A DNA stretch of 64,000 nucleotides from assembly GCA_041476105.1 (NCBI GenBank), contig JBGOSS010000006.1, positions 1,099-65,098 of the forward strand, written 5' to 3'. Position 1 is the first letter of the stretch, and every line of letters starts with the position of its first letter. The position numbers were made by a program, and so were the translations under genes. Positions 2-4,570 of this stretch are shown here, in pieces. Below the pieces are notes generated by a model that was not told the origin of the DNA, ran no database searches, and saw only the letters and a program-made list of their open reading frames with translations. This DNA is from Gemmatimonadota bacterium (GTDB taxonomy: Bacteria; Gemmatimonadota; Gemmatimonadetes; Gemmatimonadales; JACORV01).

Positions 2-145
2 GGCACCGGCCTCGGCCTGGCAATCTCGCGCAAACTGTGCCGGCTCCTGGGCGGCGACGTCGAGGTGGCCAGCGAGCCCGGCAAGGGCAGCACCTTCACC
101 GTCCGGCTCCCCGTCCAGGCGCCGGCCCCTTCGGAGGGCGCGTGA
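2..145 (+). CDS. 3' end of a sensor histidine kinase (HATPase_c C-terminus); the 5' part lies outside the window
   Basis: Frame 2 reads [37 protein letters not shown]... to TGA at 143-145, a typical G2-box/ATP-lid end of HATPase_c. The stop overlaps the next gene's GTG (GTGA). Confidence 0.85.
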
Positions 146-2301
146 AGAAACGCGCCGCCGCCCAGCGGGCCCGCAAGCCCAGCGCGCCTCGCCGTCCCGC
201 CGCGGCGTCACGGCAGGATGCGCTGCTGCGCCTCAGCACCGGCATCGCCGAGGCCGACGACGAGACCGAGGTCTGCCGCGCCGTCGTGGACGGACTCTTC
301 GGCGAGGCCCTGGGCTACGACTTCGTCGCGGTGCTGCTGGTGGACCAGGCGACCGGCGATCGCGTGCTGGTGGCGAGCGCGGGGTGGAAGGCGGCGCCGG
401 CGGGCCTGCGGATCCGTCCCGGCCAGGGCCTCAGCGAGCGCCCGCTGCTCGACGGGCGGATTCACTACACGCCCCGCGTGACCGAAGAGACGCGCTACCT
501 GCCGACGCGCAACGAGGGCTCGGAAGCGGACGTGCCGCTCCTCGCCAACCGCGCGCTGGTCGGCGTGCTGGTGGTGGAGAGCAACCGTCCCGACGCCTTC
601 GACGACGGCGATTTCAAGATCCTCACCGCAGCGGCCAACCAGGCCGGGATCGCCATCGGCCGCGCCCGGCTGCTGCGGGCCGAGCGCGAGCGCGCCGACG
701 AGCAGGAGGCGCTGCGCGCCACCATGGCCGACCTGGTCGGCCGGCGCGACCTGGCCACGGTGCTCCAGGCGGTGCTGGAGCGGGCCATGCGCCTCTTGGC
801 CGTGAGCCACGGTGAGCTGGCGATCTACGACGCCGCGGCCGAGGAGCTGGAGATCGTCGCCAGCCACAACATGGGCCGCAAAGACACCACCGGCACGCGG
901 ATGAAACTGGGGGAGGGCGCGATGGGCCACGCGGCCCGCACCCGCGAGCCGCTGCTGATCCCCAACTACCGCGAATGGTCGGGTCGCTCGGCGCAGTACG
1001 CGACGGTCGAGTTCACCGCGGTGATGGTGGCGCCGCTGCTCATCGGCGAGAACCTGGTGGGCGCCATGGCTTTCATGGACAAGAACCCGGTGCGCCGCTT
1101 CGGCGACGAAGACCTGCGGCTGCTCAACCTCTTCGCCCCGCAGGCCGCGATCGCGATCGAGAACGCGCGCCTCTTCACCGCCGCGCAGCAGCAGCGCCAG
1201 TACTTCCAGGAGCTGGTGGAGAACAACCCGGTCGCGATCGCGACGCTCGATCTCGCCGAGAACGTGGTGTCGTGCAACCCGGCGTTCGAGAAGATGTACG
1301 GCTATACCCAGGCCGAGGTCGTGGGCCGCAAGCTGGACGACCTGATCACGACCGAGGCGACCCGGCAGGAGGCGATGGCCTACACCCAGCAGGCGCTGTC
1401 ACAGAAGAGCGTCAAGATGATGAGCCAGCGCCGCCGCAAGGACGGCACGCTGGTCGACATCGAGGGGCTCGGCGTCTCCGTGGTGGTCGACGGCAGGCCC
1501 GTCGGTGCCATGGCGCTGTACCACGACATCACCGAACTGCTGCTGGCGCGCCGCGCGGCCGAAGAGGCCAGCCGGGCCAAGAGCCACTTCCTGGCCAGCG
1601 TGAGCCACGAGCTGCGCACTCCGCTCAACGCGATCATCGGCTACAGCGAGCTGCTGCAAGAGGAGATCGAGGACCTGGGCGTGGGGCAACTGGGCGCGGA
1701 CCTGGGCCGCATCGAGGCGTCGGGGCGGCTGCTGCTGGCGCTCATCAACGACATCCTCGACCTGTCGAAGATCGAGGCCGGCAAGATGGAGATCTACTGC
1801 GAGGACTTCGCGCTCGGCCCGCTGCTGGACCAGGTCACCTCGACCGTCGGCCCGTTGGTGGAGCGGCGCGCCAACCGCCTGGTGGTGGAAGGCGGGGCGG
1901 GGGCGGGGAGCATGCACGCCGACCGCACCAAGGTGATGCAGATGCTGCTCAACCTGCTGTCCAACGCCTCCAAGTTCACCGAGGCAGGCACCATCACGCT
2001 GAGCGTTAGGCGCGACGGCGCGAATGGCGCCGACACCGTCCTCTTCGAGGTGCGCGACACCGGCATCGGGATGACGAGCGAACAGATCGGCCGGCTCTTC
2101 CAGGCCTTTTCGCAGGCCGAGGCGTCCACGGCGAGCCGGTACGGCGGCACCGGGCTGGGCCTCGCGATCACCCGGCGGTTCAGCGAGCTGATGGGTGGTG
2201 ACGTCCGGGTGGAGAGCACGCCGGGAGCGGGCTCGACCTTCACGCTGACCCTGCCGGCCGTGGTGCGCGGCTCCGCGCCCGACGCCGTGGGAGGACATTG
2301 A
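142..2301 (+). CDS. GAF-GAF-PAS sensor histidine kinase
   Basis: ORF 37..2301. The most plausible start is GTG 142, overlapping the upstream stop. Two GAF-like segments, then a PAS-like segment ([10 protein letters not shown]...[16 protein letters not shown]). H-box [22 protein letters not shown]-box [13 protein letters not shown]-boxes DTGIGM and GGTGLGLAI. The exact start is uncertain. Confidence 0.9.
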
Positions 2302-2675
2302 TGCCGAGGATCCTGCTGGTCGAGGACAACGAGATGAACCGCGACATGCTTTCGCGCCGGCTGGTGCGCAAGGGCTTCGAGGTCGAGATGGCGGTGGACG
2401 GCCGCGTCGGCGTCGAGATGGGCCGCGCCGGCAAGTACGACCTCATCCTGATGGACATGAGCCTGCCCGAGGTGGACGGCTGGGAGGCCACGCGGCAGCT
2501 GCGCGCCGCGCCGGAGACGGCCACCGTGCCGATCATCGCGCTGACCGCGCACGCCATGGCGGGCGACCGCGACAAGGCGCTCGAGGCCGGCTGCAACGAC
2601 TACGACACCAAGCCGATCGAGCTGGACCGCTTGTTAGGCAAGATGGCGGCGCTGCTGCCGGTGGCGCCGAAGTGA
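2301..2675 (+). CDS. Single-domain response regulator (CheY-like receiver)
   Basis: [17 protein letters not shown]..., phospho-acceptor context DLILMDMSLPEVDG, conserved TKP lysine. The ATG at 2301 overlaps the kinase stop (TGATG). The track start at 2298 is a TTG one codon upstream. Confidence 0.9.
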   Translation: MPRILLVEDNEMNRDMLSRRLVRKGFEVEMAVDGRVGVEMGRAGKYDLILMDMSLPEVDGWEATRQLRAAPETATVPIIALTAHAMAGDRDKALEAGCNDYDTKPIELDRLLGKMAALLPVAPK

Positions 2676-4570
2676 GCCACTCCGCCCCCGGCAGCAACCC
2701 GGTCGCGGCGCTGCGCCACGACCTGCGCACCCCCGTCAACCACATCGTGGGCTACGCCGAGATGCTGCTCGAGGACCTCGAGGGCCCCGGGCACGAGGCG
2801 CAGCGCGACGCGCTGGAGCGGGCGCTGGCCGCCGCGCGCGACGCGCTCAAGGTCATCTCCCTGGTGCTGGCCCCGACCCGCGACGCGATCGAGCCCGGCG
2901 AGCTGACCGGGCTCTACACCCGGCTCGAGGACCCGCAGCGCCGCATTCACGAGGCGGTGCGCGCGATCCTCGCGGCCGCCGGCGAGCCGCCCACGCCCAA
3001 CTTCGTGGAGGACCTGCACCGCATCGAGGCCGCGGCCGCGCGGCTGGTGCCCAAGCAAGGGACCGGCGTGGCCACGGCCGCGCCGGGCAACGGGGTGGGG
3101 GGCACCGGCAAGGCGCGGGTGCTGGTGGTGGACGACGAGGAGGGCAACCGCGACCTCCTCGGCCGGCGGCTCCAGCGCGAGGGGTATGCCGTGGTGTCGG
3201 CGTCGGGCGGCCACGAGGCGCTCGCCGTCATGGCGCGCGAGGCTGTTGACGTGGTGCTGCTCGACGTGCTGATGCCCGACCTCGACGGGCTCGCCGTGCT
3301 GGAGCGTCTCAAGGCCGACCCCGCGACGCACGACGTGCCGGTCATCATGATCTCGGCGCTCGACGACCTGTCGGCGATCGCGCACTGCATCGAGGCGGGC
3401 GCGGTGGACTACCTCCCCAAGCCCTTCGAACCAGTGGTATTGCGGGCGCGGTTGTCGGCTTCGCTGGCACAGAAGCGGTATAGAGACCAGGAGCGCGAAG
3501 TGGCGCGGGCCCTGGGCGTGGTGAGCGACGCCGCGAGCGCGGTGGAGGCGGGCACCTACCGCGCCGGGCAGTTGGGCGAGGTGGCGCAGCGCGGCGACGC
3601 GGTGGGGCGGCTGGCCCGGGTGATGGATCGCATGGCGACCGAGGTGGGTGAGCGCGAGCGGCGGCTGCGCGGCCGGCTCGACCTGCTCAAGGGCGAGATC
3701 ACCGTGGCGCGCAAGACCGCCGAGCACGTGACGGAAGAATGGGACGACCGGCTGCGCACCGGCGAGACCTTCGCCGGGCGCTACACCATCGAGGCGGTGC
3801 TGGGCCGCGGCGGGATGGGGACGGTCTACAAGGCGCGCGACAGCGAGCTGGGCGAGATGGTGGCCATCAAGACTCTGCGTCCCGAGATGGTGAAGGACGC
3901 CGACTCGCGCGAGCGCTTCAAGGACGAGATCCGCCTGACGCGGCGCATCACCCACCGCAACGTCGTCCGGACCCACGATTTCGGCGAGTCGAACGGCCTC
4001 TGGTACCTGACGATGGAGTACGTCGAGGGGCTGACGGTGCGCGAGCTGCTCGACGTGCGCCGGCGGCTCGAGGTCGAGCCGGCGCTGGCGATCGGGATCC
4101 AGCTGGCCGAGTCGCTGGTGGTGGCGCACGGGATGGGCGTGATCCACCGCGACATCAAGCCGCAGAACATGCTGCTGGACGACGCGGGGGTGTTGAAGGT
4201 GATGGACTTCGGCGTGGCGCGGCTGGCCGAGAGCACGGCGAGCCACACCCAGGACGGGATGATCGTGGGGACGCCGATGTACATGTCGCCCGAGCAGCTC
4301 ACCGGCGAGACGGTGGATGCGCGCACCGATCTCTACTCGGTGGGGGTCGTGCTCTTCGAGATACTGACCGGCGAGCTGCCCCTCCACTCACCGACCGTGA
4401 TGGGGCTGTTCACCAAGGTGCTGGGCGAGCCGCCCAAGCGGCCGGGCGCGCTGGTCGAGGGCGTGCCGCCGGCGCTCGACGAGCTGATCGTGCAGCTGCT
4501 TGCCAAGCAGGCCGCCGACCGGGTGCCGAGCGCGGCGGTGCTGGTGGAGCGGCTCCAGGCGCTGGCGTAA
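2672..4570 (+). CDS. Hybrid signalling protein: HisKA-like H-box (no ATPase domain) + receiver + Ser/Thr protein kinase
   Basis: GTG start overlaps the regulator stop (GTGA). N-terminus AALRHDLRTPVNHIVGYAEML is an H-box with no N/G boxes after it. Receiver: VLVVDDEEGNRDLL...VVLLDVLMPDLDG...YLPKP. Kinase: GRGGMGTVYKA, VAIK, HRDIKPQNMLL, DFGVA, GTPMYMSPEQ. Confidence 0.9.
   Translation: MSHSAPGSNPVAALRHDLRTPVNHIVGYAEMLLEDLEGPGHEAQRDALERALAAARDALKVISLVLAPTRDAIEPGELTGLYTRLEDPQRRIHEAVRAILAAAGEPPTPNFVEDLHRIEAAAARLVPKQGTGVATAAPGNGVGGTGKARVLVVDDEEGNRDLLGRRLQREGYAVVSASGGHEALAVMAREAVDVVLLDVLMPDLDGLAVLERLKADPATHDVPVIMISALDDLSAIAHCIEAGAVDYLPKPFEPVVLRARLSASLAQKRYRDQEREVARALGVVSDAASAVEAGTYRAGQLGEVAQRGDAVGRLARVMDRMATEVGERERRLRGRLDLLKGEITVARKTAEHVTEEWDDRLRTGETFAGRYTIEAVLGRGGMGTVYKARDSELGEMVAIKTLRPEMVKDADSRERFKDEIRLTRRITHRNVVRTHDFGESNGLWYLTMEYVEGLTVRELLDVRRRLEVEPALAIGIQLAESLVVAHGMGVIHRDIKPQNMLLDDAGVLKVMDFGVARLAESTASHTQDGMIVGTPMYMSPEQLTGETVDARTDLYSVGVVLFEILTGELPLHSPTVMGLFTKVLGEPPKRPGALVEGVPPALDELIVQLLAKQAADRVPSAAVLVERLQALA

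What the first reader, a model, noticed from the sequence alone, without database searches (positions are those of the whole stretch)
142..4570. Four-step-looking phosphorelay wired into a Ser/Thr kinase output
**Seen:** three translationally coupled genes (TGATG at 2299-2303, GTGA at 2672-2675).
1. A complete GAF/PAS histidine kinase.
2. A stand-alone receiver.
3. A protein that begins with an H-box (LRHDLRTPVNHIVGYAEML) but lacks any ATPase N/G boxes. It continues into a receiver domain and ends in a complete Hanks-type kinase.

Another kinase gene ends at 145, and a PaiB-like gene is coupled at 4570 (TAATG).

**Established knowledge:** ATPase-less HisKA-like proteins such as Spo0B and ChpT act as histidine phosphotransferases in His-Asp-His-Asp relays.

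**Inference:** HK -> REC -> HisKA-only -> REC, with the terminal receiver gating a Ser/Thr kinase. Here the last three elements of a relay and a eukaryotic-like kinase sit in a single operon, and two of the relay steps are in one polypeptide. That is an unusual cross-wiring of the two phospho-signalling systems.
Basis: partly seen in the sequence, partly recalled or inferred. Interest (0 to 1): 0.6.

Follow-up and report, generated by a model that had tools for sequence, protein, structure and literature searches.

The report
Phosphorelay cassette driving a Ser/Thr kinase
This operon, probably from a Gemmatimonadota bacterium, appears to pass a phosphate from sensor histidine kinases through a small receiver protein and an ATPase-less, duplicated histidine module to a receiver fused to a eukaryote-like Ser/Thr kinase, and the same cassette recurs in several phyla with other outputs without, as far as I could find, having been described.

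Summary
Genes for a GAF-GAF-PAS histidine kinase (142-2301), a 124-aa receiver (2301-2675) and a 632-aa HisKA-REC-Hanks-kinase protein (2672-4570) overlap by 4 nt.

- **No ATPase.** No ATPase domain lies between the H-box and the receiver: Pfam HATPase_c hits 0 of 62 homologues at E<=0.1, and the AlphaFold model there is all-helical.
- **New detail.** Residues 73-128 are a second, degenerate HisKA hairpin (His replaced by Thr). The N-terminus is therefore a tandem DHp, predicted to fold as a single-chain four-helix bundle. It is not a Spo0B/ChpT-like DHp plus pseudo-ATPase.
- **Conserved order.** The order HK(s), single receiver, tandem-DHp-REC-kinase holds in about 80 Gemmatimonadota or Acidobacteriota-labelled loci. 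The receiver stop and hybrid start overlap by 4 nt in 73 of 76.
- **Other outputs.** Relatives carry cyclase, PP2C, sigma-54 activator, AAA_35 or histidine-kinase outputs. A single-domain receiver gene sits just upstream in 63 of 67 loci.

This supports a His-Asp-His-Asp relay ending in a REC-gated, HAMP-like-linked PknB-type kinase. No phosphotransfer has been shown, and a phosphatase or decoy role for the His module remains possible. The PaiB-like gene is not a conserved part. I rate it a new variant of a known kind.

The parts
1..145 (+). 3' end of a further histidine kinase gene (C-terminal end of an HATPase_c domain, G2-box-like [12 protein letters not shown]). Its stop overlaps the next start (GTGA 142-145).
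   Evidence: translation of 2-142. Homologous loci carry 1-3 GAF/PAS kinases in tandem upstream.
142..2301 (+). Sensor histidine kinase, 719 aa: GAF-GAF-PAS-HisKA-HATPase_c. Phospho-acceptor His489 is at 1606-1608. N, G1, F and G2 boxes are present.
   Evidence: Pfam. Motifs. In NCBIfam the kinase core scores best against relay-type kinases (LuxQ, TorS, BarA, ArcB, RcsC), all below their cut-offs.
2301..2675 (+). Stand-alone receiver (sREC), 124 aa. Acidic pair E8-D9, phospho-acceptor Asp52 (2454-2456), Thr and Lys all present. Proposed intermediate (D1) of the relay.
   Evidence: Pfam Response_reg 1e-25. Best NCBIfam matches are the receiver domains of hybrid kinases (PRK15347 residues 692-803, BarA 670-777). 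Conserved just upstream of the hybrid in about 80 orthologous loci and in 63 of 67 diverse loci.
2693..2881 (+). Hybrid protein aa 8-70: DHp hairpin 1 (helices 10-35 and 42-65) with the H-box LRHDLRTPVNHIVGYAEML. Proposed phospho-acceptor His16 is at 2717-2719.
   Evidence: Pfam HisKA 6.5e-10. R15, H16, L18-P21, N23, H24, G27 and Y28 are invariant in 62 homologues. 37% identity to the neighbouring HK's DHp.
2888..3055 (+). Hybrid aa 73-128: degenerate second DHp hairpin (helices 75-101 and 111-123). Thr83 (2918-2920) stands where the His would be. Aligned positions matching hairpin 1 include L81, L85, P88, I92, L115, A121, A122 (mostly invariant or nearly so; inferred bundle core), while the H-box positions (R15, H16, R19, T20, N23, G27, Y28) are replaced.
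   Evidence: hhalign of hairpin 1 against hairpin 2, in register, E=1e-4, probability 57%. Relatives carry two intact LRHELRTP hairpins at the same positions. AlphaFold four-helix model: pLDDT 85.6, pTM 0.76.
3056..3115 (+). Gly/Ala/Thr-rich flexible tether, aa 129-148, between the helical bundle and the receiver.
   Evidence: pLDDT below 50 in both models. Variable in length and sequence in the alignment.
3116..3457 (+). Receiver domain of the hybrid (hREC), aa 149-262. D154, D155, phospho-acceptor D198 (3263-3265), S228 and K250 are invariant. Proposed terminal acceptor (D2).
   Evidence: Pfam 1.6e-29. Invariant columns. Best NCBIfam matches are terminal response regulators (PleD, RpaB, PhoB).
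3458..3772 (+). HAMP-like and coiled-coil linker, aa 263-367: long helices 254-293 and 310-349, with a conserved ...AVEAG.Y..G.L..VAQR.DA.GRLARVMDRMA.EV... motif.
   Evidence: Secondary structure. Pfam HAMP in 11 of 62 homologues at E<=0.1 (best 1e-5), but no hit for the window protein itself.
3773..4570 (+). Hanks-type Ser/Thr kinase domain, aa 368-632, plus stop. Gly loop GRGGMGTV, VAIK K400 (3869-3871), HRD D494 (4151-4153), DFG D512 (4205-4207), SPE.
   Evidence: Pfam Pkinase 1.3e-49. Catalytic residues invariant. NCBIfam PknB/Stk1-like, 308 bits over the kinase domain.
4570..5205 (+). PaiB-like FMN_bind_2 gene, start overlapping the hybrid's stop (TAATG). Co-transcribed here but not a conserved member of the system.
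   Evidence: Pfam 4e-52. Absent downstream of homologues, which have a glycosyl hydrolase on the opposite strand or further Pkinase genes.

Best explanation
This is a four-step His-Asp-His-Asp phosphorelay whose last two stations are fused to a Ser/Thr kinase.

1. One or more cytoplasmic GAF/PAS histidine kinases autophosphorylate (His489 in the complete one).
2. They phosphorylate Asp52 of the 124-aa stand-alone receiver.
3. That receiver back-transfers the phosphoryl group to His16 of the hybrid protein.
4. His16 sits on a DHp-type module that has no ATPase. The module consists of two tandem HisKA hairpins. The first is active. The second is degenerate, with His replaced by Thr.
5. The two hairpins are predicted to pack into a single-chain four-helix bundle. 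That would be a pseudo-dimeric DHp working like an HPt domain.
6. From His16 the phosphoryl group passes, probably in cis through a flexible tether of about 20 residues, to Asp198 of the fused receiver.
7. Phosphorylation of that receiver is transmitted through a HAMP-like, coiled-coil linker. It changes the dimer geometry, and so the activity, of the C-terminal PknB-like kinase, which then phosphorylates unknown substrates.

Shown here: the domain content, the absence of an ATPase, the conservation of all phospho-acceptor and catalytic residues, the tandem-hairpin homology, and the conserved gene order and coupling.

Inferred: every phosphotransfer step, the single-chain bundle, the direction of regulation, and the HAMP-mediated mechanism.
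For: **The parts are present and intact.**
- Domains and gene junctions are as described.
- No ATPase: HATPase_c 0 of 62 at E<=0.1. Aa 1-128 are all-helical in the models, at pLDDT 82 and 85.6.
- His16 and the RH.LRTP.NH..GY motif, D154/D155/D198/S228/K250, and K400/HRD/DFG are invariant in 62 homologues of 55-86% identity.

**The N-terminus is a tandem hairpin.**
- hhalign of the two halves gives E=1e-4, in register.
- In 74 relatives the N-terminus is two HisKA hairpins followed by REC. Many carry LRHELRTP twice. Others have lost the His in either the second or the first hairpin.
- Foldseek's best matches to the N-terminal model are single-chain up-down four-helix bundles.

**Synteny is conserved.**
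- HK(s), then sREC, then hybrid in L001 and L003/L004 and in essentially all of 80 genome loci.
- sREC stop and hybrid start overlap by 4 nt in 73 of 76 loci.

**The sREC/tandem-DHp-REC pair is independent of input and output.**
- Outputs found: cyclase, HK, PP2C, AAA_35, a second kinase subtype and sigma-54 activators.
- Sensors found: Phosphonate-bd, Tll0287-like or GAF/PAS kinases.
- A single-domain REC gene lies immediately upstream in 63 of 67 metagenomic loci.

**Receiver types and recognition surfaces fit a relay.**
- sREC resembles the receivers of hybrid kinases, which feed HPt domains. hREC resembles terminal regulators.
- The hairpin consensus downstream of the His ([11 protein letters not shown]) is nearly identical to that of the cognate HK DHp. 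These are the positions I take, from prior knowledge, to be the receiver-contact surface, so both could dock the same receiver.
- No Hpt-domain gene appears among the called neighbours.
Against: - No phosphotransfer has been measured.
- The alpha-1 recognition residues of sREC and hREC are nearly the same (N-R-D-x-L-x-R-R-L), and the HK DHp resembles hairpin 1. Sequence alone does not show why the HK should not phosphorylate hREC directly.
- The H-(D/E)-x-x-T phosphatase motif of HisKA is retained, which also fits a phosphatase role.
- The single-chain bundle rests on a monomer-only AlphaFold prediction. Foldseek found no match at E<=0.001. hhalign probability for the in-family repeat is only 57%.
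- Many loci have a hybrid HK-REC-REC upstream. Why it would still need sREC is unexplained.
- Pfam HAMP does not hit the window protein itself.
Confidence: 0.6

Rival explanations
1. Branched two-component system with a built-in phosphatase or brake. The HK phosphorylates the hybrid's receiver (D198) directly. The N-terminal ATPase-less DHp module acts in cis as a dedicated phosphatase, or as a docking and auto-inhibitory partner, for that receiver. The stand-alone receiver is a competing phosphate sink that tunes the response.
For: - The HK DHp and hairpin 1 share the same post-His helix-1 consensus, and sREC and hREC share alpha-1 residues, so the HK could plausibly reach hREC.
- The HisKA phosphatase motif H-(D/E)-x-x-T/N is kept in hairpin 1. 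Thr20 is invariant, and T or N occupies that position in 90% of hairpin 1 sequences.
- In relatives, second hairpins that lost the His often keep LRTP.
Against: - His16 is invariant in 62 homologues and present in 94% of hairpin 1 sequences of diverse relatives. My understanding is that a pure phosphatase tolerates loss of the His.
- A sink model does not explain two things: a single-domain receiver is glued to this module in 63 of 67 loci whatever the kinase and output, and its stop overlaps the hybrid start in 73 of 76 loci.
- sREC is of the hybrid-kinase receiver type that normally hands phosphate on.
Confidence: 0.22
2. Trans-phosphorylated split kinase, or a RetS-like modulator. The ATPase-less DHp module pairs with the DHp or CA of the neighbouring kinase. 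Either His16 is phosphorylated in trans by the HK's ATPase domain, or the module modulates that kinase by hetero-association. The stand-alone receiver is not on the main path.
For: - Hairpin 1 is 37% identical to the HK's DHp.
- It belongs to the same HisKA subfamily as the cognate kinases.
- The best PDB sequence matches include the RetS and GacS DHp domains known to hetero-associate.
Against: - The second hairpin keeps positions matching hairpin 1 and is predicted to occupy the face a partner DHp would need.
- Serine precedes the His in 96% of the cognate kinases but is replaced by Arg in 93% of hairpins. A conserved alpha-2 His of the kinases is also lost. This suggests release from autokinase constraints.
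- The model leaves the near-universal adjacent receiver unexplained.
Confidence: 0.1
3. Evolutionary relic. The H-box region is the non-functional remnant of a hybrid kinase that lost its ATPase, and the protein is simply a REC-regulated Ser/Thr kinase phosphorylated directly by the HK.
For: The similarity of the hairpins to the neighbouring kinases' DHp suggests descent from a kinase. The second hairpin is degenerate.
Against: - Eleven H-box residues, including His16, are invariant across homologues down to 55% identity.
- A profile of the module finds 1085 proteins at E<=1e-10, though some may be ordinary kinases matched through one hairpin.
- The module is found with six different output types.
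- Mean column identity of the N-terminal alignment is 53%. This is not the pattern of a decaying relic.
Confidence: 0.04

Closest known systems
Bacillus sporulation phosphorelay (KinA-E -> Spo0F -> Spo0B -> Spo0A)
   Same: - Several sensor kinases feed one single-domain receiver.
- That receiver hands the phosphate to a DHp-type histidine phosphotransferase that cannot use ATP.
- The phosphotransferase passes it to a terminal receiver with an output domain.
- The proposed logic here is identical.
   Different: - Spo0B is a separate protein, a homodimer, and carries a C-terminal CA-like alpha/beta domain (my knowledge; ChpT and Spo0B are compared in PMC3433190 and PMC9981736).
- Here the His module is a tandem pair of true HisKA hairpins with no alpha/beta domain.
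- It is fused to the terminal receiver, and the output is a Hanks kinase rather than a DNA-binding domain.
CckA-ChpT-CtrA/CpdR relay of Caulobacter
   Same: A DHp-based, ATP-independent phosphotransferase sits between an intermediate receiver of hybrid-kinase type and terminal receivers. Recognition surfaces are shared along the chain (PMC9981736). Searches show the same kind of sharing here.
   Different: [quoted passage not shown]
- The intermediate receiver there is part of CckA. Here it is a free protein.
- The phosphotransferase here is a duplicated hairpin fused to its target.
HPt domains (ArcB-C, LuxU, Ypd1; Pfam Hpt)
   Same: The predicted functional equivalent: a monomeric four-helix bundle presenting one phosphorylatable His between two receivers (model; four-helix-bundle matches).
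   Different: - There is no sequence relationship. The Pfam hit is HisKA, not Hpt.
- The His lies in an H-(D/E)-LRTP H-box.
- The bundle arose by tandem duplication of a DHp hairpin.
MrrA-PhyK/LovK and Pak-PhyT-PhyR relays of the alphaproteobacterial general stress response
   Same: A single-domain receiver shuttles phosphate between kinases and a kinase-like protein that acts as phosphotransferase to a terminal regulator with a non-DNA-binding output (PMC5964349, PMC5898713).
   Different: From my knowledge, not checked here: those phosphotransferases are HWE/HisKA2-type kinase-like proteins that keep a CA domain, they are separate polypeptides, and the output is a partner switch rather than a Ser/Thr kinase.
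Receiver-regulated Ser/Thr phospho-signalling enzymes such as PA3346 (REC-PP2C) of Pseudomonas aeruginosa
   Same: A two-component receiver directly controls an enzyme of Ser/Thr phosphorylation. This is cross-wiring of the two systems (PMC12189002). Relatives of the module here also carry SpoIIE/PP2C outputs.
   Different: - The output here is a Hanks-type kinase, not a phosphatase.
- The receiver is preceded by its own His-transfer module.
- I found no characterised bacterial REC-Hanks kinase in the searchable literature.

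Membership tests
His-Asp-His-Asp phosphorelay (functional class) | An ATP-dependent histidine kinase with an H-box His and a complete N/G1/F/G2 ATPase domain | tested here: met
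   Pfam HisKA 2e-19 and HATPase_c 8e-31. His489 and all four boxes located.
His-Asp-His-Asp phosphorelay (functional class) | An intermediate receiver with an intact phospho-acceptor site | tested here: met
   sREC has E8-D9, D52, T and K. These positions are at least 97% conserved in 146 sREC sequences. It is closest to hybrid-kinase receivers.
His-Asp-His-Asp phosphorelay (functional class) | A second His station that lacks ATPase activity | tested here: met
   His16 is invariant. HATPase_c hits 0 of 62 homologues at E<=0.1. There are no beta-strands before the receiver in the models.
His-Asp-His-Asp phosphorelay (functional class) | A terminal receiver coupled to an output | tested here: met
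   hREC catalytic residues are invariant, followed by a linker and an active-looking kinase.
His-Asp-His-Asp phosphorelay (functional class) | Sequential phosphoryl transfer H1 -> D1 -> H2 -> D2 actually occurs | not testable with these tools
   Needs biochemistry. Only gene order, coupling and co-occurrence support it.
Spo0B / ChpT-type histidine phosphotransferases | A DHp helical hairpin carrying the phosphorylatable His | tested here: met
   Hairpin 1, aa 8-70, Pfam HisKA. Helices 10-35 and 42-65.
Spo0B / ChpT-type histidine phosphotransferases | A C-terminal CA-like alpha/beta (pseudo-ATPase) domain following the DHp | tested here: not met
   Residues 73-128 are two further helices homologous to a DHp hairpin, followed by a disordered tether. 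There is no HATPase_c, SPOB_a or HPTransfase hit.
Spo0B / ChpT-type histidine phosphotransferases | A homodimeric four-helix bundle formed by two chains | tested here: inconclusive
   The monomer AlphaFold model closes the bundle within one chain (pTM 0.76). No multimer prediction or solved relative is available.
HPt domain (Pfam Hpt) | Sequence match to the Hpt family | tested here: not met
   No Hpt hit at E<=0.1 in the window protein or in 62 homologues.
HPt domain (Pfam Hpt) | A monomeric up-down four-helix bundle | tested here: inconclusive
HisKA (Pfam PF00512) phospho-acceptor domain | Score above the Pfam gathering threshold, with an H-box His | tested here: met
   39.4 bits against a cut-off of 26.9. 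All 62 homologues match HisKA at E<=0.1.
Hanks-type (eukaryote-like) Ser/Thr protein kinase | Gly-rich loop, VAIK Lys, HRD, DFG and APE/SPE motifs, and a Pkinase profile match | tested here: met
   Pkinase 1.3e-49. K400, H492-R493-D494, D512-F513-G514 and P540-E541 are invariant. PknB/Stk1-like, 308 bits.
HAMP domain | Profile match to Pfam HAMP between receiver and kinase | tested here: inconclusive
   No hit in the window protein at E<=0.1. 11 of 62 homologues hit, best 1e-5. A two-helix segment with a conserved DA.GRLARVMDRMA motif is present.
PaiB-like FMN_bind_2 gene as a component of the system | Conserved co-occurrence with the HK-REC-hybrid genes | tested here: not met
   The domain is present here (4e-52). 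Homologous loci have other genes downstream.

The most novel reading that the evidence does not exclude
The window holds one member of a widespread, so far undescribed signalling cassette. It consists of a dedicated single-domain receiver plus a single-chain HPt built from two tandem HisKA/DHp hairpins, a pseudo-dimer that needs only one His.

When fused in front of the receiver of almost any response regulator, this cassette would make that regulator the terminal station of a His-Asp-His-Asp relay. Outputs seen are class III cyclase, PP2C phosphatase, Hanks kinase, sigma-54 activator, AAA_35 and histidine kinase. Some cyclase relatives chain several such units in one protein.

This would be a third structural solution to histidine phosphotransfer, beside HPt domains and Spo0B/ChpT dimers. 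It would also be a direct, modular route from two-component sensing to Ser/Thr phosphorylation.
Probability: 0.5. Interest if true: 0.75.

Novelty: new variant of a known kind. Interest (0 to 1): 0.62.

Why it matters
**A gated relay into a Ser/Thr kinase.** Phosphorelays add checkpoints between sensing and response. Only a few architectures of the middle His station are known: HPt domains and Spo0B/ChpT-type dimers. A single-chain, duplicated DHp without any ATPase remnant, fused to its target receiver and always sold together with its own shuttle receiver, would be a compact and portable way to build such relays.

**Cross-talk in a little-studied phylum.** This is a hard-wired link from histidine-kinase sensing to eukaryote-like Ser/Thr phosphorylation in Gemmatimonadota, whose signalling I believe is little studied and which carries many such kinases (two more lie in this window). 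Cross-talk between the two systems is known mostly as kinases modifying two-component proteins. Here the flow would run the other way.

**An evolutionary test case.** His is kept in 94% of first hairpins but only 45% of second hairpins. This asymmetric loss offers a natural test of how symmetric dimeric signalling modules evolve into asymmetric single chains.

**A candidate part for engineering.** The cassette's apparent indifference to input and output domains makes it a candidate part for synthetic signalling circuits.

Tried and rejected
**Searches for a hidden ATPase between the H-box and the receiver found none.**
- Pfam at E<=0.1 on the protein and on 62 homologues.
- BLASTP of aa 1-147 against the neighbouring kinase's DHp+CA. 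Similarity ends at the IE(A/P)G(K/E) motif that closes the DHp.
- I first read residues 73-128 as a possible remnant of the first strand and N-box helix of a CA domain. I rejected this when the models showed only helices and relatives showed a full second H-box there.

**Structure searches were limited.**
- Foldseek against the PDB gave only generic four-helix bundles, none at E<=0.001.
- A PDB sequence search with the module profile matched only ordinary kinase DHp domains over hairpin 1.

**Receiver-type markers did not discriminate.**
- I considered the FATGUY motif of intermediate receivers (PMC9981736). The paper states its significance is unresolved and that one hybrid-kinase receiver (ShkA) lacks it, so I did not use it.
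- Both receivers keep the aromatic switch residue.

**Literature searches found no description of the tandem module or of a characterised bacterial REC-Hanks kinase.**
- Terms covered tandem or duplicated HisKA/DHp, HisKA without HATPase_c, REC-Hanks kinase fusions, and Gemmatimonadota signalling.
- Two ids I recalled for the response-regulator census reviews returned no held paper, so an earlier mention of the bare domain combination cannot be excluded.
- A 2026 preprint on a HAMP receptor binding a Ser/Thr kinase is a different system.

**Other dead ends.**
- The promoter and terminator scan of 1-8500 was uninformative.
- NCBIfam has no model that reaches its cut-off for any of the four proteins.
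- I judged covariation analysis between receivers and hairpins not to be discriminating. All partners are co-located and share recognition residues.

Full report
**Observation.**

The first 5.2 kb of the window is one tightly packed + strand operon.
- The 3' end of a histidine-kinase gene runs to 145. Its last 47 aa include [12 protein letters not shown].
- A 719-aa kinase lies at 142-2301, with its start GTG inside GTGA.
- A 124-aa receiver lies at 2301-2675, at the TGATG junction, with GGAGGA ten bases upstream.
- A 632-aa hybrid protein lies at 2672-4570, at the GTGA junction.
- A 211-aa PaiB-like gene lies at 4570-5205, at the TAATG junction.

Pfam gives GAF-GAF-PAS-HisKA-HATPase_c for the kinase and Response_reg for the small protein. 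For the hybrid it gives HisKA (aa 11-67, above threshold), Response_reg (150-261) and Pkinase (371-621). The last gene is FMN_bind_2.

GC3 of 0.93-0.98 and more than 120 full-length homologue clusters show these are real genes.

**Is there a hidden ATPase?**

- HATPase_c is not found in the hybrid at E<=0.1, nor in any of 62 homologues of 55-86% identity.
- The AlphaFold model of the whole protein has pLDDT 82. The model of residues 1-147 has pLDDT 85.6 and pTM 0.76.
- Both show only four helices (10-35, 42-65, 75-101, 111-123), then a disordered tether (129-145), before the receiver.
- Similarity to the neighbouring kinase stops where its DHp ends.

**What the region between H-box and receiver really is.**

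Residues 73-128 align in register with residues 8-70 (hhalign E=1e-4, probability 57%).
- LYTRLEDPQRRI lies over LRHDLRTPVNHI.
- DLHRIEAAAARL aligns with the matching stretch of helix 2 of hairpin 1 (L115 on L48, A121/A122 on A54/A55). It fits the DL.KI..AG..LL consensus of the wider family.
- The aligned L, P, I and A positions match between the two hairpins, and most are invariant or nearly so (L81, L85, P88, I92, L115, A121, A122). I read these as bundle-core positions.
- The H-box positions are lost. Thr83 replaces the His.

The weak in-family signal becomes unambiguous in relatives. A profile of the N-terminal 147 aa was searched against 1.84 billion representatives and found 1085 proteins at E<=1e-10. 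Some of these may be ordinary kinases matched through one hairpin.

I examined the 74 longest of the best 150 hits.
- The N-terminus is two tandem HisKA hairpins, followed about 45 residues later by a receiver.
- Many carry LRHELRTP twice.
- Others have lost the His in the second hairpin (to Y, A, V or F). A few have lost it in the first instead.
- Across 59 diverse proteins the His is present in 94% of first hairpins and 45% of second hairpins.

Foldseek's best PDB matches to the model are single-chain up-down four-helix bundles, including a single-chain version of the ROP dimer, but none is statistically significant. A PDB sequence search finds only ordinary kinase DHp domains, and only over hairpin 1.

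I therefore read the module as a tandem DHp that closes the usual dimeric four-helix bundle within one chain. That would make it a pseudo-dimer needing a single His. This step is inferred, because I could not run a multimer prediction.

**Conservation of the system.**

The hybrid's homologues are named only "protein kinase", "response regulator" or "CheY-like". The named ones come from MAGs of Gemmatimonadales or Gemmatimonadota, a few labelled Acidobacteriota.

A scan of one genome per GTDB species found 348 relatives. I analysed the best 80 loci with my own ORF caller and HMMs.
- Essentially every locus with enough upstream sequence has one to three GAF/PAS kinases, often including a hybrid kinase with two receivers.
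- A receiver of about 123 aa follows, and then the tandem-DHp-REC-linker-kinase gene.
- The receiver's stop and the hybrid's start overlap by 4 nt in 73 of 76 loci.
- The PaiB-like gene is not conserved. Other loci have unrelated genes or further Ser/Thr kinase genes downstream.

**The cassette is independent of input and output.**

Relatives of the N-terminal module carry other outputs after the receiver:
- class III cyclase, the commonest, in 26 of 47 proteins in one sample;
- SpoIIE/PP2C;
- a second Hanks-kinase subtype;
- sigma-54 activator;
- AAA_35;
- a complete HisKA-HATPase_c kinase.

In the contexts I retrieved, a single-domain receiver gene always lay immediately upstream. The sensor kinase varied: Phosphonate-bd, Tll0287-like or PAS/GAF. 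In a metagenome sample seeded with the tandem hairpins of non-kinase relatives, 63 of 67 loci with at least 450 bp upstream have such a receiver gene. Most often a HisKA-CA-REC-REC hybrid kinase precedes it.

Named relatives come from Deltaproteobacteria, Desulfobacteraceae and Verrucomicrobiota as well. This co-inheritance of a shuttle-type receiver with the ATPase-less His module, whatever lies before or after, is the strongest argument that the two work together.

**Supporting residue-level evidence.**
- Both receivers keep all catalytic residues.
- The stand-alone receiver scores best against the receiver domains of hybrid kinases (PRK15347, BarA, HrmK, RcsC, ArcB, TorS), which normally pass phosphate to an HPt. 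The fused receiver scores best against terminal regulators (PleD, RpaB, PhoB). The kinase core scores best against relay kinases (LuxQ, TorS, BarA, ArcB). All are below family cut-offs, so this is a trend and not a classification.
- The consensus of the cognate kinases' DHp is almost the same as that of the hairpins over the positions just after the His. I take these, from prior knowledge, to be the receiver-contact surface, so both could dock the same receiver.
- The Ser before the His (96% of kinases) is Arg in 93% of hairpins, and a conserved alpha-2 His of the kinases is lost. This is consistent with release from autophosphorylation constraints.
- No Hpt-domain gene was seen among the called neighbours.

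**Output side.**

The receiver's last helix continues into a long helix. A second helix (310-349) leads into the kinase. The segment carries a conserved DA.GRLARVMDRMA motif. It is recognised as HAMP in 11 of 62 homologues, though not in the window protein.

The kinase has every catalytic motif and is PknB/Stk1-like. I infer that receiver phosphorylation changes the geometry of a HAMP-like parallel dimer, and with it kinase activation. This part has no direct support.

**Rivals.**
- The module could be a cis phosphatase or brake, with the kinase phosphorylating the fused receiver directly and the small receiver acting as a sink. In favour, the recognition residues of the two receivers and of the two DHp types are too alike to exclude it, and the HisKA phosphatase motif is retained. 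Against it are the invariance of the His and the near-obligate, translationally coupled small receiver.
- Trans-phosphorylation by, or hetero-association with, the neighbouring kinase is possible but leaves the small receiver unexplained.
- A non-functional relic is contradicted by the conservation.

**Comparison with known systems, and novelty.**

Functionally this is the Spo0 or CckA-ChpT logic. It fails one defining structural feature of Spo0B/ChpT, the CA-like domain, and it has no sequence relation to HPt domains.

In the literature I could search, I found no description of tandem HisKA modules or of a characterised bacterial REC-Hanks kinase. Two ids I recalled for key reviews returned no held paper, so the bare domain combination may have been listed before.

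I rate it a new variant of a known kind. The relay principle is classical. The single-chain duplicated DHp, its fusion to the terminal receiver, its obligate partner receiver and the Ser/Thr-kinase output are not.

**Verdict.**
- Observation: confirmed.
- Interpretation: supported, with corrections.
- Confidence in the four-step relay: about 0.6.
- Interest: 0.62.

Noticed in passing
window 17248-19800 (+) and 30881-33856 (+): Two further large Hanks-type Ser/Thr kinase genes (850 aa and 991 aa). The second has an N-terminal zinc ribbon. The genome is kinase-rich, and many homologous loci have another 740-920 aa Pkinase gene right after the hybrid gene.
   Followed up: partly
P0163 (906 aa) and L085:7001-9502 (P0170, 833 aa): Cyclase-output relatives carry four to six HisKA-like hairpins before the receiver. 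In P0163 they fall into three pairs, each with exactly one His-bearing hairpin. This looks like several single-chain His stations chained in one protein.
   Followed up: partly
loci L005-L170, gene upstream of the single receiver: The kinase next to the stand-alone receiver is very often a hybrid HisKA-HATPase_c-REC-REC protein (30 of the 37 metagenomic loci where a kinase was detected there). Why a hybrid kinase with two receivers of its own still keeps a separate shuttle receiver is unexplained.
   Followed up: no
column profiles of hairpins against cognate kinases: The residue before the phospho-acceptor His is Ser in 96% of the cognate kinases but Arg in 93% of first hairpins. A His in helix 2 (K-H-L-L, 92% in kinases) is lost in the hairpins. 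These are candidate markers separating autokinase DHp from transfer-only DHp.
   Followed up: no
L081:6188-8863 and P0201: In L081 one ORF reads sREC-tandem DHp-REC-linker-kinase in a single frame. This is either a fusion or an assembly or frame artefact. P0201 has an HK core followed directly by the tandem hairpins and a receiver. Both suggest occasional fusions of neighbouring relay components.
   Followed up: no
window 5216-7546 (-): A neutral/alkaline ceramidase-like gene (Ceramidase_alk, 8e-55) converges on the operon's end. I believe this enzyme family is uncommon in bacteria.
   Followed up: no
window 25561-27549 (+) and 27657-30797 (+): A Castor/Pollux-type RCK ion-channel homologue is followed by a 1046-aa subtilase with 7-8 PKD repeats.
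   Followed up: no
window 40493-42868 (+) and 58369-61074 (+): Two large MacB/FtsX-type permease genes lie in the same window.
   Followed up: no
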